64,000 bases of DNA from Candidatus Magasanikiibacteriota bacterium (GTDB lineage: Bacteria; Patescibacteriota; Patescibacteriia; Magasanikbacterales; 2-02-FULL-50-9b), in contig CALRDW010000003.1 of the NCBI GenBank assembly GCA_943355025.1, forward strand, positions 7,680-71,679, in the 5' to 3' direction. Both the position numbers and the translations under genes were made by a program. How positions within the stretch are numbered: the first letter of the stretch is position 1; each line of letters starts with the position of its first letter. Shown here piece by piece: positions 9,962 to 63,792 of this stretch. The notes beneath the pieces are model-generated. The model saw only the letters and a program-made list of their open reading frames with translations, did no database searches and was not told the DNA's origin.

Positions 9962-9989
9962 GGCGTCCCTTTCGGGGGGCGCTTTTTTG
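9962..9989 (+). terminator. rho-independent terminator of the RRM gene
   Basis: GGCGTCCC-TTTC-GGGGGGCGC hairpin followed by TTTTTTG. Confidence 0.6.
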
Positions 9990-9998
9990 TTTCAACCC

Positions 9999-10079
9999 AT
10001 ACCCAAAGAAAATAATTCTACTTCTCAGGGAGAGATAAACAGGAACTCCCGTCGAAGTAGAATTATTTTCTTTGGGTAT
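9999..10079 (+). repeat. structured module copy A: 26-bp perfect inverted-repeat arms (9999-10024 and 10054-10079) around core TCAGGGAGAGATAAACAGGAACTCCCGTC
   Basis: left arm ATACCCAAAGAAAATAATTCTACTTC is the exact reverse complement of the right arm; homologous elements at 18037-18209, 62757-62836 and 27879-27959. Confidence 0.8.
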
Positions 10080-10107
10080 ACGTCAACACAAGTGGTATAC
10101 TGCTCAC

Positions 10108-11208
10108 ATGCTTCCGAATCCATTTGAAAAACCGCTGCCGAAATTAGAAGAAACAGATCCTCTTAAGAATGAGGAAATTGTTCGGAGCCTGCTCGGTGAG
10201 AAGGGTGTTGAACGATATCGAAAAATTTTAAATCGCACGAAAGTTTCTTCGGGGCCCGACGCGGTGTCTGTCGAAGAGCTCAAAGCGCTCGCAGCAGAAT
10301 TGAATGCGCAGCGATTGGCGAGTAAAAAAGAAACTACAGAGTGGCAGGTTGAACAAATTATTTCAAAGGATTATGAACGACAAATGGTATCTCTTCGCGC
10401 AATCAAATTTCTTAAAAGAAAAGACGGAATTTTAGGTTTAAAAGCTGTTGACGGAGAATTTTATCCAGCTCCATCAGAAAAAGAGATCGTACGATATTTT
10501 ATTTCAATTCCGAATATTAAAGAAAAGATATATCAAGGATTTACGCGACTACTCATTGTTCCGTTCGGGCGCTCGCTTGCTTTTTTGAACAAAAAAACAT
10601 CGGATTTGATTTTAGAGCACGGGGAGGGTGGCAGGCTTTTGAGTGAATCAGGCGAAAAGCTCTCCTTTGATTTGTCAGGACCGGTATACAATCAGTTCAA
10701 CAATGCTTTGTCCCGATATTATTCAGGGTCATTCGCTGTTCCGGGTACGGGAGGCAAACTTAAAACCGATTTTTTATCGGGACCACAAGATGGCATGCCA
10801 TTTCCAGGCTACAACATTATTTTATTGCAAGAAGATTTACATATTCCGAAGGAAGGCGAAGGCGTGACACGAAATGGAAGAAAACAAATTGAAGCGGGGA
10901 AATCAGCAATTGAGTATTTGGAATTATTACAAACAGATCCGCAGTATGCGGGTGAGCGTGGCCTCGCGCCCGAAGATTGGCTCACGTTATTTGCAACGCA
11001 ACTGTATCAGACAAACACTGTTATACATGAAACATCTGCGGCAATGCCGCCCACAGGAACGGCTGCACTTTTGATTGGCAGCGATTATTCACATAATGGA
11101 GATGTTTCGTTTGCACACTGGACTGACCGATTAGGCATGGCAGCAATTATGTTGATGAAGTCGCATCATTCAGGCGAAGGGGTAGGCCTTATAACCGCTG
11201 TCGGATAA
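10108..11208 (+). CDS. paralog A of an unknown-function protein family (conserved N-terminus MLPNPFEKPLPKLEETDPLKN)
   Basis: ATG lies 6 nt after a TATACT -10 (10096-10101), so leaderless; shares GFTRLLIVPFG, PFPGY..LLQED..IPKEGEG..GRKQ.EAG, EDWLTLFAT and a C-terminal TAVG with the 18235 and 37341 genes. Confidence 0.75.
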   Translation: MLPNPFEKPLPKLEETDPLKNEEIVRSLLGEKGVERYRKILNRTKVSSGPDAVSVEELKALAAELNAQRLASKKETTEWQVEQIISKDYERQMVSLRAIKFLKRKDGILGLKAVDGEFYPAPSEKEIVRYFISIPNIKEKIYQGFTRLLIVPFGRSLAFLNKKTSDLILEHGEGGRLLSESGEKLSFDLSGPVYNQFNNALSRYYSGSFAVPGTGGKLKTDFLSGPQDGMPFPGYNIILLQEDLHIPKEGEGVTRNGRKQIEAGKSAIEYLELLQTDPQYAGERGLAPEDWLTLFATQLYQTNTVIHETSAAMPPTGTAALLIGSDYSHNGDVSFAHWTDRLGMAAIMLMKSHHSGEGVGLITAVG

Positions 11209-16548: not shown

Positions 16549-18013
16549 AAACATGCTGATTCGTAAAATTTTTGTTTCACTGGCCATGATCGGATTGCTT
16601 TTTGGCAACCCTCTTTTTTCATTTGCAGCAACAACTAAAAAAACGACGCAGACAGCAGTAAAGAAATCTGCGATAAAAAAAACCACAACAAAAAAACCAC
16701 AGCAAAAAATAGTTCCGAAGCAAAAAGAAAAAATAAATCCACGCCGTGCAAATCTTCTTATTTTGAGTGAACATGATGTGCATATTTCTCCGGGCGAAGG
16801 TGTTTCTGTGCGTGTTGGTTTTAAAAATAGTGGTTCGACAGCATGGGGTGTGCGGGAACTTCGCGCCGCTACGGGCAGCGATACAACAATTTTTTCTGAT
16901 GTGAGTTGGCCATCGACAACAACACTTGCGCGTGACGATGGGAGCCCACTTGCAGCAGGACGTCTCGAATTTTACGATTTTATCGTTCGCGCTCCAGACC
17001 AACCTGGAGCATACTTACTTCGCGCTTCGCTATATGCAGATGGGCTTGTTGTGAATGGTGGAGATATTTCTTTACCAATTACGGTTGAAATTCAGGAAAG
17101 CGTAGTACCAACAAGCACGGCGGAGATTGTGCAGCTTCCTCATGAACCAAACATTCGTGTTGCGCTCGGAAAAATCGAGGGTGGAATTTTAGTGCGCACC
17201 GTTGGAGAATATGATTTAAAAACGCTTGATGGAACTGAAATTTTATCTGTGCCTGATGGCGCGAAATTATTGTGGGAGTTTGACCGCGTTTCAAAAGGAT
17301 TCATGGTTACGTATCAAGGAACCCCGTATACGACCGCGACGGCATTCAGATTACAACCGCGGACGCTCGACGGGCGCGTTATTATTCACGATCGCGAAGA
17401 CAGACCGTCGTGGAATGGTTCAATAAATTATAATGATTATCGTGGAGCACTCGAGGTGCAGTGGAGCGATAAAATTCCAGGACTATGGCTCATTAATGAA
17501 TTACCCATGGAGTCGTATGTGCGCGGCTTGATTGAGACAGGAAATTCGGATCCGATTGAATTACAGAAAGCGATTTATACAGCCGCGCGCTCTTACGCAT
17601 ATGTGCAGCTGCCCGATGGCGTGCATTATATTTCGCGTATGTGGGACGTTCATGCGGTGTGGGATCAATATTACAAAGGATACGCTGCGGAAAAAAGTAA
17701 TCCGCACGGCATGCAAGCGATTGAAGAAACGCGCGGGCAGGTTGTTGAGTATCAGGGGAAGCCGGTTGTCACGCCATATTTTACTCAATCAAATGGTACA
17801 ACGAAAACATGGAAAGAGGCGTGGGGTGGAACTAATAAGCCATGGCTTATTCCTGTTGACGCGAAATATGATCATGGTCGGAAGATGTGGGGGCATGGTG
17901 TTGGTATGAGTAATCATGACGCAAAGCAGCGTGCGAAACTCGATGGGTGGAGCTTTGAGCAAATTTTGAAACATTATTATACGGGAGTTGAGCTTGCGCG
18001 TGTTTACGAATAG
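16538..18013 (+). CDS. SpoIID/LytB domain protein
   Basis: C-terminal GHGVGMSNHDAKQRAKLDGWSFEQILKHYYTGVEL matches the SpoIID/LytB signature; N-terminal signal/TM and Lys/Thr-rich low-complexity region. Confidence 0.7.
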   Translation: MRTKNMLIRKIFVSLAMIGLLFGNPLFSFAATTKKTTQTAVKKSAIKKTTTKKPQQKIVPKQKEKINPRRANLLILSEHDVHISPGEGVSVRVGFKNSGSTAWGVRELRAATGSDTTIFSDVSWPSTTTLARDDGSPLAAGRLEFYDFIVRAPDQPGAYLLRASLYADGLVVNGGDISLPITVEIQESVVPTSTAEIVQLPHEPNIRVALGKIEGGILVRTVGEYDLKTLDGTEILSVPDGAKLLWEFDRVSKGFMVTYQGTPYTTATAFRLQPRTLDGRVIIHDREDRPSWNGSINYNDYRGALEVQWSDKIPGLWLINELPMESYVRGLIETGNSDPIELQKAIYTAARSYAYVQLPDGVHYISRMWDVHAVWDQYYKGYAAEKSNPHGMQAIEETRGQVVEYQGKPVVTPYFTQSNGTTKTWKEAWGGTNKPWLIPVDAKYDHGRKMWGHGVGMSNHDAKQRAKLDGWSFEQILKHYYTGVELARVYE

Positions 18014-18036
18014 CACAAAACAGTTGATTCAACTTA

Positions 18037-18209
18037 CGCTCAAAAAGAATAAATGATACTTCTCAGGGAGAGATAAACAATACATCTTTCTCCGTCACAT
18101 CAGCATTTCAAAAATCTTCCGCTCAGGCTAAAATAAAAAATAGATGTCTCTCCGGGGGAGATAAACAGGAACTCCCGTCGAAGTAATAGTTTTTACTTTT
18201 GGGTATACG
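18037..18209 (+). repeat. structured module copy B (degenerate outer arms; core partially duplicated)
   Basis: TCAGGGAGAGATAAACA occurs at 18063 and again as GGGGGAGATAAACAGGAACTCCCGTC at 18153-18179; right arm GAAGTAATAGTTTTTACTTTTGGGTATACG. Confidence 0.7.
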
Positions 18210-18234
18210 TTCATTCAGGTGTTATACTACTCCC

Positions 18235-19437
18235 ATGCTTCCTAATCCTTTTCAAAAACAACTACCAGAGTTTAAAGACACAGACCCTCTTAAGAACAGA
18301 GAGATTGTTAGAGAACTCCTCGGACCAGAGGGAGTACATAAATATAGAAAGATTCTCGGAGATAATTCGGATTCTAATTTAAAGCGTCAGAAAGAAGTTT
18401 CTAAAGAAGATCTCCTTGCCATGGCAGCAGAAGCTCGCTCTAAAATAGATACTCTGTCCAGAGACTCAGTAAAGCCACTCATCGAGAGACTCGTGGAGCG
18501 CCAATACAACTCTCAGATCCAATCTCTGCAAGAGATTGGATTCCTAGAACCTCTCGTACCACAAAAAAAGAAAAGCTTTACCTTTTTCAAATCAAAAGAA
18601 CCAGAAGAAACTACACCAGAGAAACTAGGAGCTACAGACATCCTCGGTACCTTCCGAGAAGTCCCCTCAGAGGAAGCCATCAAAAATCACTTCCTCTCCA
18701 TTCCTAACATCAAACAAAAGATAGATCAAGGATTCACACGGCTTCTCATTGTTCCCTTTGGAACATCCCTCGACACCCTCCGTTCTAAAACAGGAGAACT
18801 TATCAAGAAGCATAAGAAAGCAAACAAACTTCTTGCAGAGGATGGAAGCAGTTTAGAACTCGACACTGCAACACCACTCTGGGCATGGGACGGCTATAAC
18901 AACGCAGACAAGTCAGGAGCGCTCGTTTATTATCCAGAGCACTTTGATAAAGAAAATCACAATGGTACAACCAAAACAGAACTTCTCTCAGGAGCTCAAC
19001 CAAGTCAAGCAAACTCTTCCACACCAAACACCAATCCATTCCCCGGCTACCGTATTCTTCTTATTCAGGAAGACACACAGATTCCACGAGAAGGAAAGGG
19101 AACAGCAAAAGCAGGGAGAGACAGTTTAGAAGCAGGTAAGTCTCCAAACGACTACTTAGAACTTCTTAAAACAGATCAGAGCTATTCTAAAGAACTCGGC
19201 CTCACTCCAGAAGACTGGCTTACTCTCTTTGCAACGAATCTCACAGAGAAGAACAAGGTTATCAATGACTGGCAGTCTAATAAAGACAGTATTAATTATC
19301 TAGTTGGTAGTTATTTCCCTGGTTCTGACCGCGTCCCGCGCGCGTACTGGGGCCGTGGCGGTCGGCGGGCGCGCTTGGACAGGGGCGGGCCGGCGGGTGT
19401 GAGCGGGGATTTTGGCGTTGCTGGCGCGGTGGGGTAG
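18235..19437 (+). CDS. paralog B of the same family (MLPNPFQKQLPEFKDTDPLKN...; Gly/Arg-rich GC-rich C-terminus ending AVG)
   Basis: ATG 6 nt after TATACT (18223-18228); shared motifs as paralog A. Confidence 0.75.
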   Translation: MLPNPFQKQLPEFKDTDPLKNREIVRELLGPEGVHKYRKILGDNSDSNLKRQKEVSKEDLLAMAAEARSKIDTLSRDSVKPLIERLVERQYNSQIQSLQEIGFLEPLVPQKKKSFTFFKSKEPEETTPEKLGATDILGTFREVPSEEAIKNHFLSIPNIKQKIDQGFTRLLIVPFGTSLDTLRSKTGELIKKHKKANKLLAEDGSSLELDTATPLWAWDGYNNADKSGALVYYPEHFDKENHNGTTKTELLSGAQPSQANSSTPNTNPFPGYRILLIQEDTQIPREGKGTAKAGRDSLEAGKSPNDYLELLKTDQSYSKELGLTPEDWLTLFATNLTEKNKVINDWQSNKDSINYLVGSYFPGSDRVPRAYWGRGGRRARLDRGGPAGVSGDFGVAGAVG

Positions 19438-26676: not shown

Positions 26677-27648
26677 TTAATTGAGTGTACGTGTAACAAT
26701 TTTTGCGGGGCTGAAAATAAAATTGTCAGGAATTTTTTTAGAAATTTTTACAGCGACAAAGCAACTGATCGCGCCGATCGTTGCTCCCGCAAGAATATCT
26801 ACGCCATAATGTTGAAGCCCGTAGAGCGTTGCAACAACCGTAAGCAAAAAAAATGGTACGAGAATAATTGCAGAGTATTTCCAAATTCGATATCCAAAAA
26901 ATAAAATGAGAGTTGCCCAGGCGATGTGCATGCTGGGAAAATTTGTTACATCGAGAAATGGTGTTGCATCATGCGTTTGGAGAGTTTTGATCGTGCTGAT
27001 AAATTGTGTAACAGCGGGGGAGATATACATGCTCGCTGACTCGGCCGCGAGGGCCGGAGAGAGTGGTGTGTTAGTAATGTTATAAAGAAATCGAGCGGCG
27101 GGTGTGAGACCGGGGAATGAGAGCCAGAGCGGGGTGCTGAGAATTTCTGAAAAAACAAATGCAAGAAGAACGGCGAGTGAAAATTTTTGTCCGCGCACGA
27201 ATGCTGCAATGAAAAGAAGGCCAAGTGCAAGCGCGAGGAAGCTGTAGCAGACGAGCGAAGTGGGACCGATTATCTCGAGAATGTTGTGAAACGGATTTGC
27301 GCTTGTATGAATCCAGAGCGGAAGATTAACGCCGAATATTTTTTTATCCCAACCTAATAATTTTTCAGCGAGCATTGTTGCGCGCGCGGGCGTTGTGCTG
27401 TGTGCAACAGAAGTTAAAATGATTCCTGAGAGCAGCGCAAGACCGATGAAAATTCCAGTGAGTGCAAGTGAGGATCGAATATAAATAAGAATCGCGGCGC
27501 GGGCGTGTTTATTTTTGTGCACGAGATATTGTACGCTCCACACATAAATATTAATCGCGTAAAATAAAATGAGGAAAATAAAAAATAGTAAGAGAAAATA
27601 CGAACCGCCGAAATGGATATAGTAGCTGAGGGATTTTAAAATTTGCAT
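26677..27648 (-). CDS. PAP2-family membrane phosphatase-like protein
   Basis: polytopic membrane protein with PSMH and LQHYGVDILAG motifs (PAP2 motifs 2/3-like). Confidence 0.5.
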   Translation of the reverse strand: MQILKSLSYYIHFGGSYFLLLFFIFLILFYAINIYVWSVQYLVHKNKHARAAILIYIRSSLALTGIFIGLALLSGIILTSVAHSTTPARATMLAEKLLGWDKKIFGVNLPLWIHTSANPFHNILEIIGPTSLVCYSFLALALGLLFIAAFVRGQKFSLAVLLAFVFSEILSTPLWLSFPGLTPAARFLYNITNTPLSPALAAESASMYISPAVTQFISTIKTLQTHDATPFLDVTNFPSMHIAWATLILFFGYRIWKYSAIILVPFFLLTVVATLYGLQHYGVDILAGATIGAISCFVAVKISKKIPDNFIFSPAKIVTRTLN

Positions 27649-27745
27649 ACTGTGGTTTATGCAACAGGGGTGATTGAGTGTTTTGCGGGCGGACTTTTCA
27701 GACTGGTCTTATAGTACTCAAGGCGACCACGCTCACGACTCCAGC

Positions 27746-27850
27746 TCACATCTGAGACATCATCAAAAAGCCACGGGTAATACGTGCCAATAAGAATGGC
27801 TCTGTGTCTTTAAACTCTGGGAGTTGTTTTTCAAAAGGGTTAGGAAGCAT
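27746..27850 (-). pseudogene. N-terminal fragment (34 codons) of the MLPNPF paralog family, copy D
   Basis: MLPNPFEKQLPEFKDTEP then divergent FLLARITRGFLMMSQM*; preceded by TATACT 6 nt upstream and module copy D. Confidence 0.6.
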
Positions 27851-27878
27851 GGAAGCAGTATAGCACTTGAATGAACGC

Positions 27879-27959
27879 ATACTCAAAGAAAATGCAGATG
27901 CCTCGACGGGGGCTCGTGTATATCTCCCCCTGAGAGGCATCTGCATTTTCTTTGAGTAT
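27879..27959 (-). repeat. structured module copy D: 26-bp perfect IR arms (27879-27904 / 27934-27959) around core (minus-strand reading TCAGGGGGAGATATACACGAGCCCCCGTC)
   Basis: arm ATACTCAAAGAAAATGCAGATGCCTC and its exact reverse complement; conserved upstream box (minus-strand) CAGTGATTCAACATATACTCAAAG. Confidence 0.8.
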
Positions 27960-28051
27960 ATGTTGAATCACTGTATTGAACTACTTATAAGCTTTTGAGC
28001 TCTGTTGAAAATAAATTAAAAACACCCACATTTTGATGGGTATTTTTAATT

Positions 28052-37340: not shown

Positions 37341-38369
37341 ATGCCTGTTGATCCTTTTGAAATGTACCCACTTGAGCCACAGCCCGAAGAGCACAAAAAA
37401 GAATCTTTAAAATTTCAACCAAAGGATGAATTTTATTTTGATCATGCAGCCGCACTTAAGCATTCCGCAGAATGGAGTTTGAATGAATTACCGAAACAAT
37501 ATAAAAAGAATACTGAAATTTTGGATGAGCTTGGATTACTCGAGAATTCTAAGGGAGAGCGAGCAATTAAAAGCGTTGATGGTAAGACGTATTCATATCC
37601 TACCGTAGAAAACATACAGAAGTATTTTGAGAGCATGCCAAACATTGAGATGAAGCATGCTCAGGGTTTTAACCGATTGCTGATTGTTCCGTTCGGGTTG
37701 CCAATTGAAAAAATAGGAGAAGCAGTTAGTAAAAATTTAATACATGGAATACGTTCTGGCAGGTACCTTACTGCAAATGGAGAATCTTTCCGTGGTGACG
37801 CAGACGAGGACATGATTATGATTGCCCGCTCCATTTTGGGAGAACGAGGCTGGGGAGATCTTAAATATTATCCAGACTCGTTTGATCAAAAAAAAGATTC
37901 AGGTAAAACAAAATTGGAAATTTTGGGTGGAGGTTCTTCGGTTCAACCATTTCCAGGGTTTCATGTGCTTTTGTTGCCTGAAACAATTGAAATGCCAAAA
38001 GAGGGAGAGGGCAAAACAGTGGCGGGTCGAAAGCAATTTGAATGCGGAATGAGTGCTGAAGATGTTTTAGAATCTTTAAAGACAGACCCTGCATTCAAGC
38101 TTGAATGTGGTTTAACTATTGAAGATTGGCTTTTGTTTTTAGCGGCAGAGACTCGTAGTACAGGACGCTTACCTGGGTGTGCTAATGACACAGATTTTTT
38201 TGATGTAAGCGATCTGCCGCCATCAGCAATATTGTTGGGTAATTTAATTGGAAAAACTGACATAACGGTGTGGGCTGGGTGGTACCCTAGACACCAAACG
38301 TACGGGGTCGGGCATCTTGATGCTGATGATGGTCATGACAAGCTTTGCGCAATGACGGCTGTTAAATAA
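37341..38369 (+). CDS. paralog E of the unknown-function family (divergent N-terminus MPVDPFEMYPLEP)
   Basis: shares GFNRLLIVPFG, QPFPGFHVLLLPETIEMPKEGEGKTVAGRKQFECG, EDWLLFLAAE and C-terminal TAVK with paralogs A and B; no upstream hairpin module, but TGTGATATACT and palindrome AGTCTAAACTAGACT at 37301-37325. Confidence 0.7.
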   Translation: MPVDPFEMYPLEPQPEEHKKESLKFQPKDEFYFDHAAALKHSAEWSLNELPKQYKKNTEILDELGLLENSKGERAIKSVDGKTYSYPTVENIQKYFESMPNIEMKHAQGFNRLLIVPFGLPIEKIGEAVSKNLIHGIRSGRYLTANGESFRGDADEDMIMIARSILGERGWGDLKYYPDSFDQKKDSGKTKLEILGGGSSVQPFPGFHVLLLPETIEMPKEGEGKTVAGRKQFECGMSAEDVLESLKTDPAFKLECGLTIEDWLLFLAAETRSTGRLPGCANDTDFFDVSDLPPSAILLGNLIGKTDITVWAGWYPRHQTYGVGHLDADDGHDKLCAMTAVK

Positions 38370-42417: not shown

Positions 42418-43265
42418 GCATTCACTCTCAATTAAAGAATTACCATGTACGCTTAGCCGAAAGGCTCGTACCTCTGGGCCGTTAGTAGCGGCCTTTTTGC
42501 TTCTTAAATGGGGCACGAAGTTTGGCAGAACAATGAGTGGAGAGTATCTGAACTTTAACAACTGAAGATTACGAAGGTAAAGGCAAATAATAGAACCATT
42601 GCAATTAAGCAAATAATAAAAACGTAAGTAAGTAGTGTAAAAACACAATGTACGTGAAGCTTTCCAAGCGCATAAACACCGTCTTGGTGCTTCAATGTAA
42701 GAGCGTACAATAAGGGTGTGTGGTGGATGCCTTGCTAAATATAGCTGAAGAAGGACGCTGTAGCGAGCGAAAACTACGAGAAGGTCGCAAACAACCTCTG
42801 ATCCGTAGGTCTCCGAATGGGGAAACCCACTTCGATGAGAGTCGAAGTATCCTGCAGTGAATACATAGCTGCTGGAAAGTTACCCGGGGAAGTGAAACAT
42901 CTCAGTACCCGGAGGAATATAAATCAAATGAGATTCCCAGAGTAGTGGCGAGCGAAATGGGAACAGACCAAACGTACAATCCACGAACGGAATGAAAGGT
43001 CGTCTTCGGACGTATCATGAATTCCGGGAAAGGTGTAGGCCGATGTGTTGTACGGGTTGTGGGATGATACTTGAGAGGACCTACAAACTCTCGGTCAGAA
43101 CTGTGTTATAGGAAAATAGGCTGGAAAGCCTAACCAAAGAGGGTGATAGTCCCGTATTCGAAATGACATTAGTTCGGCTTGTATCGTTCCCGAGTAGGGC
43201 AGGACACGTGAAATCCTGTCTGAAGCTGGGACGACTATGTTCCAAGTCTAAATACTATATTTAAG

Positions 43266-43302
<37 letters not shown>

Positions 43303-43887
43303 CAGCCCGAAAGGGCGATGAAATAGTTTCTGAAACCACGCACTTACAAGGAGTCGGAGCCCAAGCGCGCGTAAGCGAAATGCCGGGTGACGGCGTGCCT
43401 ATTGAAGAATGAGCCAACGAGTCAGTTGACCGTCGCAGGTTAAGGTCCTATGGACCGGAGCCACAGTGAAAGCAAGGATTAATAGTCCGTTTGTGGCGGC
43501 GACTGTACCCGAAACGGGGTGAGCGACCCATGACCAGGTTGAATGTTTTGGAAACAAAACAGGAGGACCGAACCAACCAGCTGTGCAAAACTGGTGGATG
43601 AGTTGTGGGTAGCGGAGAAATTCCAATCGAACCCCGTGATAGCTGGTTCTCCTCGAAACATCTTTAGGGATGGCCTCGTATGTTCCCACCGGAGGTAGAG
43701 CACTGAATGAAAACAGGGGCGCAAGTCTACTTTTTTCAACCAAACTCCGAATGCCGGTGATTAAAAATACGGGAGTCAGACAGTGGGGGCTAAGCTTCAT
43801 TGTCTAAAGGGAAACAGCCCAGACCATCAACTAAGGTCCCAAAATCAATGCTCAGTGTGAAAAGTGGTGATGTAGCTTTGACAACCA

Positions 43888-43919
<32 letters not shown>

Positions 43920-44708
43920 GAAAGCGTAACAGCTCACTGGTCGAGCCGCATCGCGCTGAAAATATACCGGGGCTTAAGCATTGTACCGAAGTTATGGATT
44001 GTATTCGGATCCGTCTGAATACAGTGGTAGAGGAGCGTTCCGTCCAGCAGTGAAGTCGGACCCGCGAGGGCCGGTGGAGCGGACGGAAGTGAGAATGTTG
44101 GCATAAGTAGCAGAAACGGGTGTGAGAATCACCCGCACCGTAAAACCAAGGTTTCCTGGGCAACGCGAATCGTCCCAGGGTAAGTCGATCCTAAGCTCAG
44201 GCCGAAAGGCGTAGGCGATGGAAGAGCAGGTTAATATTCCTGCACTATGATAGTGGAGTTCTATATGTGCGCATTTTTGAGATGTGAGCGGTATTTGGTT
44301 ATGGCCGTTGCGCAAGCACGAGATGAAGTCTTCGGATGGAATCAAGTTGGGTTGAAGAAGTGCCAAGAAAAGCATATAGCGCGTTGAAGCTGTCGTATCC
44401 GTACCGGAAACCGACACAGGTGGTTGGGCATGAATATGCCAAGGTGTACGAGAGAACCCTCGTTTAGGAACTAGGCAAAAAAGTAGGCGTAACTTCGGGA
44501 TAAGCCTTCCCTCTCGCAAGAGAGGGCGCAGCGAAAGACATCAGGCGACTGTTTATCTAAAACACAGCTCCATGCGAAACCGTAAGGTGATGTATATGGG
44601 GTGATGCCTGGCCAGTGTCCGAATGTTAAGGGGAGAGGTTAGCCGCAAGGCGAAGCTTTGATCCGAAGCACGGATGAACGCCGGCCGTAACTATAACGGT
44701 CCTAAGGT

Positions 44709-45419
44709 GAATAAAAGCTGCCTTAGTAAAATTCGACTAAATGCTGGAACAACTGGAGTATCTTGTGCTCCTAAGGTATAATGTAACCATAGATTATGCC
44801 AAGGAATAATGTACAAGCGTTTCCGAGTAAGGATCGGAAGCCAGTCAATCAGCAGGAAAGACTAGAAATGAGTGGTTGGATAGTAGGATTCACCGATGGT
44901 GAAGGCTGCTTTTCGGTAAGTCTCATAAGAAATACAACAGCCAAAATTGGTTGGCAAGTATTTCCTGAGTTCGTAATCACGCAGGGAGCAAAGAGTCGTG
45001 TAGCACTCGAAGAAATTCAAATTTTTTTCGAATGTGGACGAATCTATGAAAACCGGCGTTACGATAATCACCGAGAGCATCTATTGCGTTATTGTGTGAG
45101 ATCAATTCAAGAGCTTCGAGAACGGATAATTCCTTTTTTTCAGCAACATGAATTGAAAACACACAAAAAGAATGACTTCAAAAAGTTTTGTGAAATAATT
45201 TCTCTTATTGAGAAAAGACATCATTTGACGTATGAAGGAGTTACTAAAATAGCGCAACACATATCAGAAATGAATCGAAAATCAAAACCAAAGTTTCTAG
45301 AATCCTCAGAGACTACACGTCGAACTCTGGACACAGAGATGATATAGTCCGACCTGCATAGCGATATGCAGAAAGTGGTAGAAATACTACTTCGTCCAGA
45401 AATGGATAGTAACATATTG
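44709..45419 (+). mobile_element. group I intron in 23S at the E. coli about 1917 site (between AAGGT and AGCGAAATTCC)
   Basis: exon ends in U, intron ends in G (45419); S-element-like AGATGATATAGTCC near the 3' end; contains the homing endonuclease ORF. Confidence 0.75.
44796..45347 (+). CDS. LAGLIDADG homing endonuclease (intron-encoded)
   Basis: LAGLIDADG motif WIVGFTDGEGCF; 183 aa inside the 23S rRNA. Confidence 0.85.
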   Translation: MPRNNVQAFPSKDRKPVNQQERLEMSGWIVGFTDGEGCFSVSLIRNTTAKIGWQVFPEFVITQGAKSRVALEEIQIFFECGRIYENRRYDNHREHLLRYCVRSIQELRERIIPFFQQHELKTHKKNDFKKFCEIISLIEKRHHLTYEGVTKIAQHISEMNRKSKPKFLESSETTRRTLDTEMI

Positions 45420-45819
45420 AGCGAAATTCCTTGTCAGGTGAGTTCTGACCCGCACGAATGGCATAACGATCTGATGACTGTCTCAACGAGGGACTCGGCG
45501 AAATTGCAAGAGGGGTGAAGATGCCCTTTACCCGTGGTTAGACGAAAAGACCCCATGAAGCTTTACTATAACTTGTCATTGGACATACGTTTCGTATGTT
45601 CAGCGTAGGCGGGAGCCGCAAGGCACCAATGAGACACCGCCCTTACGCTATGTGTGTTCTTGATCCCTGTCCGTGAATCCGGATGGAGAGACAGTGACTG
45701 GTGGGTAGTTTGCCTGGGGCGGGAGCCTCCCAAAAAGTAACGGAGGCGTCTACAAAGGTCAGCTTAGCGCGGATGGAAATCGCGCTGGACGTGTAAACGC
45801 ACAAGCTGGCTTTACTGCA

Positions 45820-45850
<31 letters not shown>

Positions 45851-45968
45851 AGGTTAGTGATCCGACGATCCAACATAGGATGGTCGAAGCTCAACGGATA
45901 AAAGCTACTCTGGGGATAACAGGCTGATCGGGTCCAAGAGTCCATATCGACGACCCGGTTTGGCACCT

Positions 45969-46309
45969 TAACATATCGGGGTGCAAATAGAGTGATTTAT
46001 TTCCAAGTCTTTTCGTCAAAACTAAAATGTTAGATAGTGAGAAACAATAAATTCGGCTTATAACGGAGAACCCGTCAGTGATACGCCCGTATCACCCGGC
46101 AACCCCGTGGGAAGTCGCCTATGAAAGTAGGTTGACCCCGTAACGACTGACCCGAAAGGGGAGAATCTGCGCGCTGTGCGCGGATTAACACGCCGACTCT
46201 TAATACGTCAAACTGAGATTATGCACGTAAACACAGTTAGTGTTTGCAGCTACGATCCAGATTAAGATGAAGATATAGTCTACCCCACAAGAAACTGTGG
46301 AATTATGTA
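45969..46309 (+). mobile_element. second, ORF-less insertion in 23S (probable group I intron at the E. coli about 2500 site, GGCACCU|CGAUGUCGGCUC); boundaries +/- a few nt
   Basis: flanking exon sequence is contiguous in E. coli; contains S-element-like AAGATGAAGATATAGTC (46265-46280); removing both insertions gives about 2.96 kb mature 23S. Confidence 0.55.
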
Positions 46310-46325
46310 CGATGTCGGCTCATCG

Positions 46326-46356
<31 letters not shown>

Positions 46357-46369
46357 TGGCTGTTCGCCA

Positions 46370-46421
<52 letters not shown>

Positions 46422-46814
46422 CTATCTACCACGGGCGTTGAATATTGAGAGGGCTGGTCTTTAGTACGAGAGGACCGAGATCAACGAACCTCTAGTGTAC
46501 CGGTTGTCCCACCAGGGGCAAACGCCGGGTAGCTACGTTCGGCACGGATAAACGCTGAAAGCATCTAAGCGTGAAGCCGTCCTCAAGATTAATATTCGTT
46601 ATAGCTCCCTGGGAGACTACCAGGTTGATAGGCCGGAAGTAGAAGCGTAGTGATACGTGTAGCTGACCGGTACTAATAGAGCGAGTACGACCTTACATTG
46701 AAGCACTCAAACGTTATTGATGTGCTTAAAAATTCGGTAATGGCGACATATTCGTCCATTACCTTCGTAATCAAATCAGTTGAAACGGTTGGAGCAGGGC
46801 TCCCCCGCAGTAAA

Positions 46815-61911: not shown

Positions 61912-62366
61912 GCAGTTACTGGTTGTCGATCTATCGGTTTGAGGCTACCCGTTGCAACCATATCTTTATACATTGCACCAAGCACTCCATTGACGAAACG
62001 GCCGGAGGATTGGCCGCCAAAGGTTTTTGCGAGCTCAATCGCCTCATTTATGGCAACTTTTGCAGGGATTGTCTCTGCGTATTGTAACTCAAATGTGCCG
62101 AGACGCAAAACATTGCGATCAACATTTGTTATTTGGTCGAGTGGCCACTGTGGCGCGTATTTCTGAATCAGCGTATCGATCTCGTGCTGGTGTTTGAGAA
62201 CACCATCCACGAGTTCATGCGCAAACTCAGCATCTTTCATGCCAGGAGCAAATTCAGCGACGTTTTGGTCGATGATTGCTGGCATAATGGCGCTTGGACC
62301 ACCCATGAAGTCCCACTGAAAGAGGGACTGCATTGCTACGGAACGCAATAAATGACGATTTGACAT
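61908..62366 (-). CDS. nusB: transcription antitermination factor NusB
   Basis: NusB-like helical protein (LRSVAMQSLFQWDF...AINEAIELAKTFGG); 4-nt overlap with rnc. Confidence 0.8.
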   Translation of the reverse strand: MSNRHLLRSVAMQSLFQWDFMGGPSAIMPAIIDQNVAEFAPGMKDAEFAHELVDGVLKHQHEIDTLIQKYAPQWPLDQITNVDRNVLRLGTFELQYAETIPAKVAINEAIELAKTFGGQSSGRFVNGVLGAMYKDMVATGSLKPIDRQPVTA

Positions 62367-62393
62367 AGGAAAAAGAACAGTTTAGTTGGACTG

Positions 62394-62570
62394 TTATTTA
62401 ACAGCAACAACTTTTCGGCCGCGGTATGTACCGCAAAACGCACATGCGTGATGAGGAACTACCGGTTTTTTGCATTGAGGGCATGCTGCAAGAACCGCTG
62501 TTTTGAGCGCAAAATGCGCGCTACGGCGGCGTTTGTGTGATGATGTTCGTCGATGTCCAGGAAGACCCAT
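62394..62570 (-). CDS. rpmF: 50S ribosomal protein L32 (bL32)
   Basis: 58 aa MGLPGHRRTSSHKRRRSAHFALK...CPQCKKPVVPHHACAFCGTYRGRKV zinc-ribbon; below the ORF-track size cut-off. Confidence 0.8.
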   Translation of the reverse strand: MGLPGHRRTSSHKRRRSAHFALKTAVLAACPQCKKPVVPHHACAFCGTYRGRKVVAVK

Positions 62571-62756
62571 AGTAAATTCGTGACTATACAGGGATTATAA
62601 CAGTGTTTTTGAGGGCTGGCAAGGGGAGTCGGCCGCTCATAGTTTTAGTGTTATATCAGAAGTCGGAGGCGTTGGCAAGAGGTGTGTACTATTCATTTTT
62701 TGGTTTCAACAGGGCTCGGAAGTTTATAAGTAATACAATACGGTGATTCAACATGC

Positions 62757-62836
62757 ACTCAAAAGTAAAAACTATTACTTCTCAGGGGGAGATGAACGAG
62801 GGGCCCCCGTCGAAGTAATAGTTTTTACTTTTGAGT
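62757..62836 (+). repeat. structured module copy C: 25-bp perfect IR arms (62757-62781 / 62812-62836) around core TCAGGGGGAGATGAACGAGGGGCCCCCGTC
   Basis: left arm ACTCAAAAGTAAAAACTATTACTTC equals the reverse complement of the right arm; upstream box CGGTGATTCAACATGCACTCAAAAG. Confidence 0.8.
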
Positions 62837-62866
62837 ATAGGTTCACTCAGGTGTTATACTGCTTCC

Positions 62867-62938
62867 ATGCTTCCTAATCCTTTTCAAAAAACTCTTATAA
62901 GGGAGCTTGTTCATGTCTCAAACACGACTTGGAACTGA
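62867..62938 (+). pseudogene. N-terminal fragment (23 codons) of the MLPNPF paralog family, copy C
   Basis: MLPNPFQKTLIRELVHVSNTTWN*; ATG 6 nt after TATACT (62855-62860); contains AAGGGAG SD for the next ORF. Confidence 0.55.
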
Positions 62939-63107
62939 CAAAGAACACTCGAAATCTTTACGCATTGAGATTATGGCAAAGCGCGGCATGATTAAAGAAA
63001 TGTCACCGCGAGACAAAGTCGGCCGCCGCGCATTGGAAGATAACATCGAAGAACTTGAACGTGAATTGGCAGAACTGTGTCCAGATCCCGCTCCACTATC
63101 AGACTGA
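62913..63107 (+). CDS. small hypothetical protein (64 aa, helical, charged)
   Basis: ATG 62913 preceded by AAGGGAG 7 nt upstream; lies downstream of module copy C. Confidence 0.45.
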   Translation: MSQTRLGTDKEHSKSLRIEIMAKRGMIKEMSPRDKVGRRALEDNIEELERELAELCPDPAPLSD

Positions 63108-63132
63108 TACGGTTTGGTCGCGGGGTATTTTT

Positions 63133-63792
63133 TTACTGAATGTTTTTATCTGCGTCAATGGTCGGCGAGGTGCCACGCTCGGTTTCAGACGAGTAGTCCG
63201 CCGCTGAAGAGATTTGTGTCCCAATGGCGTAATTCGTAAAGTAGTAATCTTGAAGTGTATCGACGAGGCTGTGCCAATTTTTCCCGAATAATTTTTCTGC
63301 GTTGCCATCATTGATTGCACGAAGAACACAGTTGTGCGCGACAGCAAAGATGTGTGGGTCACTTGCGATGCGGATGAGGCGCGTACCTGGGCGATAACAT
63401 ACGTTGCCGCCAAGCGGATAGGATTCGAGTTCGGTTTCGGTTAATGAAACAATTTTTGTTCCGCTTGGAAACCATGTATCGAAGGTTTTTGTTTCATCAG
63501 GAAATACATAGCGCTTGCCGTTGCGCGACAAATAAAATTTAGTCGCAACTTTTGGTCCTACAATAACACTACCAGCGAGTTTTGGTACTTCAGCGCGCAG
63601 AACAGGGCTAACGTCTGGGCCCGTGCTCGAAACAACGTCTGTATTATTTTGCGCTGCTGGCTGCGCTACTCCTGCAGTCGTTGACGGATTTGATGATGCA
63701 CGGTTAAAAATTCGGTACCACAAGTTTGATGAGAGTATGATTACCACAACCAAGGCTAAACCAATCACAATCGTCTTGTTTTTCTGTTCCAT
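63133..63792 (-). CDS. hypothetical membrane-anchored/secreted protein
   Basis: N-terminal TM helix (IVIGLALVVVIILSS); no domain recognised. Confidence 0.45.
   Translation of the reverse strand: MEQKNKTIVIGLALVVVIILSSNLWYRIFNRASSNPSTTAGVAQPAAQNNTDVVSSTGPDVSPVLRAEVPKLAGSVIVGPKVATKFYLSRNGKRYVFPDETKTFDTWFPSGTKIVSLTETELESYPLGGNVCYRPGTRLIRIASDPHIFAVAHNCVLRAINDGNAEKLFGKNWHSLVDTLQDYYFTNYAIGTQISSAADYSSETERGTSPTIDADKNIQ

What the first reader, a model, noticed from the sequence alone, without database searches (positions are those of the whole stretch)
62700..63107. Module copy C is fused to a 23-codon family fragment that feeds an unrelated small gene
After the C hairpin and TATACT (62855-62860) the ATG at 62867 encodes MLPNPFQKTLIRELVHVSNTTWN*. 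Only the first about 11 residues match the family. Inside this mini-ORF lies AAGGGAG, 7 nt upstream of ATG 62913, which opens a 64-aa charged helical protein unrelated to the family. So the hairpin, promoter and leader peptide appear to act as a portable expression cassette placed in front of a different gene, divergent from rpmF-nusB-rnc.
Basis: partly seen in the sequence, partly recalled or inferred. Interest (0 to 1): 0.65.

Follow-up and report, generated by a model that had tools for sequence, protein, structure and literature searches.

The report
Gene-family promoter stump feeding an orphan gene
A leftover front end of a repeated gene family (a perfect DNA hairpin, a promoter and about 11 codons) sits in a 442-base insertion found only in this bacterium. 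It is the only recognisable promoter for a 64-codon gene with no relatives anywhere, so it may show a recycled promoter giving a brand-new gene its expression, though no transcription has been measured.

Summary
Positions 62697-62896 are a fourth copy of the 5' control module of a Patescibacteria-only gene family. The module has a perfect 25-bp palindrome, TTGAGT-18-TGtTATACT, and an ATG 6 nt after the -10 (a leaderless layout). It is followed by 11-12 family codons, a stop at codon 24, AAGGGAG, and a 64-codon ORF.

New findings:
- Three relatives (NusB 79-82% identical) have the flanking 219-aa gene directly next to rpmF. The whole stretch of about 62691-63132, module plus ORF, is therefore a lineage-specific insertion. 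No pre-existing gene was captured.
- The 64-aa ORF has no homolog in 1.84 billion representative proteins or in six-frame scans. Even so, it has native codon usage and a confident helical-hairpin model.
- This species carries about 10 module copies, three of them stumps. Stump D retains a frame-shifted family C-terminus, so stumps can arise by internal deletion.
- Strains differ in what lies upstream of the module.
- The stems come in five fully compensated, purely Watson-Crick variants.

Best reading: a decayed family paralog left a live leaderless promoter and mini-ORF that now drives an orphan gene. The "portable cassette" interpretation is only partly supported. Expression is untested.

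The parts
62691..63132 (.). Lineage-specific insertion of about 442 nt between the stop of the 219-aa gene (63133) and the rpmF promoter region.
   Evidence: Relatives L010, L011 and L031 have orthologs of the 219-aa gene (52-63% identical). Those genes end about 84, about 50 and 132 nt before rpmF. They have no module hit and no tblastn hit to the 64-aa protein.
62697..62756 (+). Conserved upstream segment of the module (TTTCAACAGnnCTCnnAAGTTTATAAGTAnTnCAATACnGTGATTCAAC).
   Evidence: Shared with D, P0008, P0016, L009:3934 and L004:16508. Absent in A.
62757..62781 (+). Left arm of the palindrome (stem type 1).
   Evidence: 25/25 Watson-Crick pairs with 62812-62836.
62782..62811 (+). 30-nt loop with an inner 5-bp GGGGG/CCCCC helix. 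This is the 'stump' loop variant.
62812..62836 (+). Right arm of the palindrome. Its last six bases, TTGAGT (62831-36), are the -35-like hexamer.
62852..62860 (+). Extended -10, TGtTATACT.
   Evidence: Found by the promoter scan. Invariant in all nine aligned copies.
62867..62938 (+). 23-codon mini-ORF that starts 6 nt after the -10 (leaderless layout). Codons 1-8 are identical to the family, and DNA homology runs to codon 11-12.
   Evidence: hmmsearch against the family profile matches positions 1-10 only.
62899..62905 (+). Shine-Dalgarno-like AAGGGAG at the homology junction, 7 nt before ATG 62913. It is predicted to pair with the mRNA 5' end, GCUUCCU.
   Evidence: The chance rate of such a strong 5-mer before a random ATG is about 2%.
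62913..63107 (+). 64-codon orphan ORF, predicted to form a two-helix hairpin.
   Evidence: Codon-usage score is 0.28 per codon, the 56th percentile of real genes. No off-frame window reaches it. AlphaFold2 pLDDT is 84.7. No homolog was found.
63090..63134 (+). Weak terminator-like interrupted stem, rich in G-U pairs, followed by T7.
   Evidence: Fold. The simple terminator scan did not detect it.
27816..28015 (-). Module copy D (stem type 3, 26/26 Watson-Crick).
27657..27850 (-). Internally deleted family pseudogene behind D. It has 18-20 N-terminal codons, then a frame-shifted 46-codon C-terminal remnant. The PAP2 gene starts at 27648.
   Evidence: hmmsearch matches profile positions 1-29 in one frame and 323-359 in another. 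In the Smith-Waterman comparison, 0 of 300 shuffles reached the observed score.
9974..11208 (+). Module copy A (stem type 4) with an intact 366-aa family gene (10108-11208).
17999..19437 (+). Module copy B with an intact 400-aa family gene (18235-19437). B is chimeric: a type-2 left arm, a 68-nt insert in the loop, and a type-1 right arm.
37341..38369 (+). Diverged family paralog with no module.
62394..62622 (-). rpmF gene and its TTGCCA-17-TATAAT promoter, divergent from module C.

Best explanation
Copy C is the surviving 5' stump of a paralog of a Patescibacteria-specific multi-copy gene family. It lies inside a 442-nt insertion that close relatives lack.

The stump keeps the family's full control module. 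That module has a roughly 60-nt upstream segment and a perfect 25-bp palindrome with a 30-nt loop. It also has an extended -10 promoter whose -35 lies in the right arm, and an ATG 6 nt after the -10, so the mRNA would start at or next to the AUG (leaderless). Eleven to twelve family codons follow. The reading frame then runs into unrelated sequence and stops at codon 24.

The unrelated 242 nt carry AAGGGAG, a 64-codon ORF with native codon usage, and a weak hairpin plus T7.

Inferred mechanism: the module promoter makes a short bicistronic, leaderless transcript. Ribosomes load on the 5'-terminal AUG and translate the mini-ORF. This opens a predicted pairing between the 5' GCUUCCU and the Shine-Dalgarno-like AGGGAGC. 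The 64-aa protein is then made by coupled or independent initiation.

What is shown: the anatomy, the copy family, the absence from relatives, the orphan status, the coding statistics, and the origin of sister stump D by internal deletion.

What is inferred: that C also arose by loss of the gene body, that the promoter fires, and that the two ORFs are coupled.
For: - Module identity and copies: (E = 1.6e-60).
- The promoter and the 6-nt spacing to the ATG or GTG are invariant in nine copies.
- The stems are perfect.
- The insertion is absent in L010, L011 and L031.
- Sister stump D retains the family C-terminus in a shifted frame.
- A third stump lies in front of an epimerase operon.
- No other promoter-like site lies between 62861 and 62912.
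- The ORF looks coding. Its codon usage is at the 56th percentile of real genes and no off-frame window reaches that score. An ORF this long arises by chance at 1.6-3.3%. The AlphaFold2 model has pLDDT 84.7.
- The 5' end pairs with the Shine-Dalgarno-like motif, and the 3' end has a hairpin plus T7.
Against: - Unlike D, C has no family remnant downstream. The deletion origin of C rests on analogy.
- The origin of the 242-nt segment is unknown.
- There is no transcript or protein evidence.
- Shine-Dalgarno motifs are hardly enriched in this genome (6 of 45 ORF starts against a 9.5% background).
- The fold of the mRNA 5' region is not significant overall (z = -1.5). The terminator-like stem is weak and the scan missed it.
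- An orphan with a single sequence cannot be tested for purifying selection.
Confidence: 0.55

Rival explanations
1. The stump is itself a mobile or copyable unit: palindrome, promoter and about 12-20 codons. It spreads on its own and lands in front of genes, as the first reader proposed (a true portable cassette).
For: - Three stumps keep similarly short coding tails (11-12, 12 and 18-20 codons). All three point at co-directional genes.
- They share a derived loop (GGGGG..ACGAG..CCCCC) and TATACTGCT. All six intact-gene copies instead share one identical loop.
- Module left edges repeatedly abut T-runs or terminators.
- The pair meets the formal mobile-promoter criteria.
Against: - D carries the family 3' end, so it arose by internal deletion in place.
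- The three stumps have three different stem types (1, 3 and 5) and different right junctions.
- I saw no target-site duplication or terminal repeats.
- At C the downstream ORF is as new to the locus as the module is.
- Three of three co-directional has a chance probability of 0.125.
Confidence: 0.2
2. C is a dead pseudogene stump and the 64-codon ORF is a chance or decaying frame with no function. Nothing is 'fed'.
For: - The ORF is an orphan in every search.
- It matches no Pfam, NCBIfam, PHROGs or PADLOC family.
- Shine-Dalgarno motifs are little used in this genome.
- Helical hairpins are easy for AlphaFold2 to predict, and the fold matches are generic.
Against: - The codon-usage score is typical of real genes and no off-frame window matches it.
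- The chance probability of an ORF this long is 0.016-0.033.
- The stem (25/25) and the promoter are intact in C.
- The layout is compact: promoter, ORF, hairpin plus T7.
Confidence: 0.15
3. The palindrome acts as RNA (a small RNA, a processing site or a terminator). The 'promoter' and the leaderless ATG would then be secondary.
For: - Very stable folds (z = -8.9 to -11.6).
- Extensive compensated variation in the stems.
- A larger multi-branch relative in Magasanikiibacteriota.
Against: - There are no G-U pairs in about 125 core stem pairs of C, A, D, P0009 and P0008.
- In copy A the hairpin follows directly after the upstream gene's terminator, leaving no room for a promoter.
- No U-tract follows the stem, and the terminator scan finds none.
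- There is no Rfam family. The only hits are miRNA-precursor noise far below threshold.
- The -10 and the spacing to the ATG are invariant.
Confidence: 0.07

Closest known systems
Putative mobile promoters / promoter reuse (Matus-Garcia, Nijveen and van Passel 2012, PMC3488235; PMC3575422)
   Same: Highly similar upstream DNA (91% over 92 nt against copy B) lies in front of non-homologous coding sequences, with non-homologous upstream neighbours.
   Different: - The shared block includes the start codon and 11-12 codons of the donor gene, plus a 25-bp perfect palindrome.
- At least one sister copy arose by internal deletion of the donor gene, not by movement of a promoter.
- The recipient ORF is itself new to the locus.
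Leaderless mRNAs, with the -10 box 6-7 nt before the start codon (common in Actinobacteria, Deinococcus and archaea; from my own knowledge)
   Same: TATACT, then 6 nt, then ATG or GTG in all nine copies. No Shine-Dalgarno motif precedes the family start.
   Different: - No transcription start site has been mapped.
- Here the leaderless cistron is a 23-codon stump followed by an overlapping second cistron with a Shine-Dalgarno-like motif.
Upstream or leader ORFs with translational coupling (general bacterial mechanism; from my own knowledge)
   Same: The mini-ORF overlaps the start of the 64-codon ORF by 26 nt. The Shine-Dalgarno-like motif lies inside the mini-ORF and is predicted to pair with the 5' end.
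   Different: - The leader peptide is a fossil of an unrelated protein's N-terminus, not a dedicated sensor peptide.
- No attenuator terminator lies between the two cistrons.
Palindromic dispersed repeats that can carry promoters (REP/REPIN elements, Correia and other MITEs; from my own knowledge; REPINs reviewed in PMC8049555, listed but not read)
   Same: A multi-copy palindromic non-coding element with promoter activity towards neighbouring genes. It is also associated with rearrangement breakpoints.
   Different: - It is tied to the 5' end of one protein family.
- The stems differ between copies by fully compensated changes, whereas those repeats are near-identical copies.
- I saw no target duplications.
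- I identified no RAYT or transposase.

Membership tests
Putative mobile promoter (PMC3488235) | Upstream regions align over more than 50 nt at 80% identity or higher. | tested here: met
   62799-62890 against 18167-18258 is 91% identical over 92 nt. nhmmer E = 1.6e-60.
Putative mobile promoter (PMC3488235) | The downstream coding sequences do not align. | tested here: met
   The 64-aa ORF against the family profile gives hhalign probability 0.15%. tblastx and blastn find nothing. Caveat: the 23-codon mini-ORF does align with the family.
Putative mobile promoter (PMC3488235) | The upstream coding sequences do not align. | tested here: met
   The upstream neighbours are rpmF at C, an RRM protein at A, a SpoIID-like protein at B and tRNA-Leu at D.
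Putative mobile promoter (PMC3488235) | The promoter was mobilised separately from its gene. | tested here: inconclusive
   D arose by internal deletion. C has no 3' remnant. No intermediate genomes were available.
Leaderless transcription unit | A -10 hexamer about 6-8 nt upstream of the start codon, with no Shine-Dalgarno motif. | tested here: met
   TGtTATACT at 62852-60 and ATG at 62867. The same spacing holds in nine copies.
Leaderless transcription unit | A mapped transcription start at or next to the start codon. | not testable with these tools
   No transcript data were available.
Intrinsic terminator (for the palindrome) | A G+C-rich stem followed directly by a U-tract. | tested here: not met
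   The scan finds 0 terminators in 62300-63300. The right arm is followed by ATAGGTTCACTCAGG.
MITE / IS-derived repeat | Terminal inverted repeats flanked by a target-site duplication, with near-identical copies. | tested here: not met
   I saw no duplication at 62691 or 63132. The copies differ at 6-11 compensated stem positions. The right ends differ between stumps.
Any Rfam RNA family | A score at or above the family gathering threshold. | tested here: not met
   Only rRNA and tRNA pass in the window. In 62550-63200 the best hit is MIR821 at 35 bits against a threshold of 249. Nothing was found on the Magasanikiibacteriota elements.
Known protein family for the 64-aa ORF | A significant profile or sequence match. 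| tested here: not met
   Pfam, NCBIfam, PHROGs, PADLOC and PDB sequence searches all gave E >= 0.04. The Foldseek search of PDB gave no hit at E <= 0.001, best 1.6.
Known protein family for the MLPNPF family | A significant profile, sequence or fold match. | tested here: not met

The most novel reading that the evidence does not exclude
The palindrome and leaderless-promoter module is a previously undescribed, structure-maintained DNA element of Patescibacteria. Its stems are kept perfectly Watson-Crick through compensated change. Its loop is a target for another inserted element. Its edges are strain-level rearrangement breakpoints. It persists and perhaps copies itself without its gene, acting as a recyclable promoter that can switch on newly arisen ORFs such as the 64-aa orphan.
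Probability: 0.15. Interest if true: 0.75.

Novelty: new variant of a known kind. Interest (0 to 1): 0.45.

Why it matters
If the stump promoter is active, this locus is a compact natural example of how an orphan ORF can gain expression. It would borrow the promoter, the leaderless start and the ribosome-loading mini-ORF of a decayed paralog. That bears on promoter reuse and on gene birth in reduced genomes.

Separately, the module is unusual in several ways:
- It has five fully compensated, G-T-free stem variants.
- Its loop is identical across paralogs whose proteins are only 44% identical.
- It coincides with strain rearrangements and insertions.

The module is an unexplained element in a phylum where regulatory DNA is almost unstudied.

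Tried and rejected
- **Homologs of the 64-aa ORF.** None were found. I ran a word-index search and an exhaustive phmmer search against 1.84 billion representative proteins. I also ran a six-frame scan of JGI metagenomes and tblastn against phages and plasmids. A tblastn search of all 382 kb of fetched loci, PDB sequences and the profile libraries added nothing.
- **Is 62891-63132 a hidden remnant of the family gene?** No. blastn-short and tblastx, a six-frame hmmsearch and hhalign were all negative. The same test was positive for D.
- **Exact loop-pattern scans.** These found 0 hits in GTDB genomes, JGI metagenomes and IMG/VR. The family is also absent from IMG/VR, so nothing suggests a phage origin.
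- **Exact-sequence look-ups.** Copies of the 64-aa gene gave only 100% identical versions of the locus. Look-ups of P0003, P0012 and P0013 found no record. The contig of one relative (P0038), which has a 423-nt gap at the homologous site, has no DNA on file.
- **A promoter in the 48-nt upstream segment.** I rejected this. The spacing is poor, the -10 candidate ends in G, and the segment is absent from copy A.
- **A long target-site duplication from the two rpmF promoter boxes.** I rejected this because their similarity is weak.

Full report
**What is at the site**

- The palindrome has arms at 62757-81 and 62812-36, around a 30-nt loop. The stem is 25/25 Watson-Crick. It folds at -46.4 kcal/mol with z = -8.9.
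- The last six bases of the right arm (TTGAGT) and TGtTATACT at 62852-60 form the only promoter-like site on this strand upstream of the ORFs.
- The ATG at 62867 lies 6 nt after the -10. A transcript would therefore begin at or next to the AUG (a leaderless layout).
- The ORF reads MLPNPFQKTLIRELVHVSNTTWN*.
- AAGGGAG (62899-905) lies 7 nt before ATG 62913, which opens a 64-codon ORF ending at 63107.
- rpmF, nusB and rnc are divergent on the minus strand.

**The module family**

Repeat finding and a profile search show four copies in the window:
- A at 9974-10140;
- B at 17999-18269;
- D at 28015-27816 on the minus strand;
- C at 62697-62896.

A and B precede intact 366-aa and 400-aa genes. A third, diverged paralog at 37341 has no module.

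The protein family has 28 sequence clusters, no names and no Pfam, NCBIfam, PHROGs or PADLOC match. A confident AlphaFold2 model has no PDB neighbour. The family occurs only in Patescibacteria. One Magasanikiibacteriota genome has at least 10 copies.

Contigs from this MAG, and from a co-occurring strain that is 97.5-100% identical, add intact copies P0008, P0009, P0016 and P0017. They also add a third stump and a half-module. That makes about ten modules in the species.

**Properties of the module**

- The -10, its TG and the 6-nt spacing to ATG or GTG are invariant.
- The core stems are perfect in C, A, D and P0009. They fall into five sequence types that differ at 6-11 positions. Every difference is compensated and none involves G-T.
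- All six intact-gene copies share an identical 33-nt loop, although the A and B proteins are only 44% identical. The three stumps share a derived loop.
- No Rfam family matches.
- The stem overlaps the -35. In copy A it follows directly on the upstream terminator.
- Together with the absence of wobble pairs, these points argue for a DNA-level hairpin or cruciform, or for arm-to-arm correction, and against an RNA made from this promoter. Its function remains unexplained.

**Is C a cassette placed before an existing gene?**

No. Three relatives with NusB 79-82% identical carry the ortholog of the 219-aa gene (52-63% identical). That gene ends about 84, about 50 and 132 nt before rpmF. The relatives have no module hit and no trace of the 64-aa ORF. 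The whole of about 62691-63132 is therefore an insertion specific to this lineage.

DNA homology to paralog P0008 continues to codon 11-12, so the junction falls on the Shine-Dalgarno-like motif. The remaining 242 nt match nothing in the family, the window, the relatives or any database.

**How stumps arise**

Behind D, codons 1-18/20 are joined, in a shifted frame, to ILIGTYYPW...ITPVA*. This matches the last 46 or so residues of the family (hmmsearch; 0 of 300 shuffles reach the score). D is therefore an internally deleted paralog.

The third stump (L009:3934-4134) keeps 12 codons. A terminator-like hairpin follows, and then an epimerase operon.

The identical P0016 gene has different upstream neighbours in two strains, and homology begins at the left edge of the module. 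Copy B is a chimera of two stem types with an insert in the loop. The same insert start interrupts another module at the same loop position. Modules are thus hot spots for deletion, exchange and insertion.

By analogy C is most simply a decayed paralog. Unlike D, however, it has no 3' remnant to prove this.

**Is the 64-codon ORF real?**

In favour:
- Its codon-usage log-odds score (0.28 per codon) sits at the 56th percentile of 64-codon windows from 45 long ORFs. No off-frame window reaches that score.
- A complete ATG ORF this long arises in 1.6-3.3% of random 242-nt sequences.
- AlphaFold2 predicts a two-helix hairpin at pLDDT 84.7 from the single sequence. The fold matches are generic.
- A G-U-rich interrupted stem plus T7 follows the stop codon. 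The terminator scan missed it.

Against:
- It has no homolog anywhere.
- Shine-Dalgarno motifs are barely enriched in this genome.

**Proposed mechanism (inferred)**

The module promoter makes a leaderless bicistronic RNA. In that RNA the 5' GCUUCCU is predicted to pair with AGGGAGC (the overall fold is not significant, z = -1.5). Translation of the 23-codon stump would free the motif, or would allow re-initiation at ATG 62913, which lies 23 nt upstream of the stump's stop codon.

**Comparison with known systems**

The locus formally meets the criteria for putative mobile promoters (PMC3488235). It also has the leaderless layout and a leader-ORF arrangement. It differs in three ways:
- the shared block includes donor codons and a perfect palindrome;
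- at least one sister stump arose by deletion, not by mobilisation;
- the recipient ORF is itself new to the locus.

It fails the tests for an intrinsic terminator, a MITE and any Rfam family.

**Verdict**

This is a new variant of promoter reuse, attached to an unexplained palindromic element. Interest is moderate (0.45).

Noticed in passing
window 42700-46695 (ORF 44796-45347): The 23S rRNA gene is about 1 kb longer than the Rfam model. It contains a LAGLIDADG_1 homing-endonuclease ORF (Pfam E = 8e-24), so it probably carries an intron.
   Followed up: partly
window 62594-62622 and about 62652-62685 (minus strand): There are two tandem promoter-like boxes (TTGCCA-17-TGnTATAA[T/C]) before rpmF. 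Relatives L010, L011 and L031 have one. The distal box lies at the left edge of the insertion.
   Followed up: partly
window 18025-18258; L004:16508-16705: Module B is chimeric: a type-2 left arm, a type-1 right arm and a 68-nt insert in the loop after GAGATAAACA. The first 46 nt of that insert also interrupt a half-module after rpsP at the same loop position, and the contig ends there. An unidentified element appears to target the loop.
   Followed up: partly
L029:9838 versus L030:3318: The identical P0016 gene and its downstream DNA have entirely different upstream neighbours in two strains (an HD-domain gene versus xseB). Homology starts at the left edge of the module, so this is a rearrangement breakpoint.
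   Followed up: partly
L013:5452-5612, L022:4198-4350, L012:3300-3455 (Magasanikiibacteriota MAG JAPLWO01): A related but larger element lies just before TGTTATAAT and the family ATG. It has a 20-bp outer stem similar to stem type 4 and a multi-branch interior (DNA fold z = -9.6). In L012 it is joined to a 5'-truncated family gene. Other paralogs in that genome lack it.
   Followed up: partly
L009:3934-4186: A third stump keeps 12 family codons. It is followed by GCCGCAGAGCATATTGCGGC plus a T-run, and then by an NAD-dependent epimerase and glycosyltransferase operon on the same strand.
   Followed up: partly
all module copies: The 33-nt loop is identical in all six intact-gene copies, although their promoter segments differ at up to 13 of 62 positions and their proteins are as little as 44% identical. 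The three stumps share a different loop whose inner helix is kept by a compensated A-T to G-C change.
   Followed up: partly
window 9967-9995, 28020-28045; L004:16490-16512; L009:3910-3940: The left edges of the modules repeatedly sit directly after T-runs or terminator hairpins of the preceding gene or tRNA. This could reflect a target preference or simply the boundaries of transcription units.
   Followed up: no
L003 start (= window 62861); L009 start; L004 end: Several short-read contigs break inside or at the edge of a module. Copy number and context of the module are therefore probably under-assembled in this MAG.
   Followed up: no
L009:1227-2365: A family gene lies in tandem directly after P0017. 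It has no palindrome or -10 of its own, so not every paralog carries the module.
   Followed up: no
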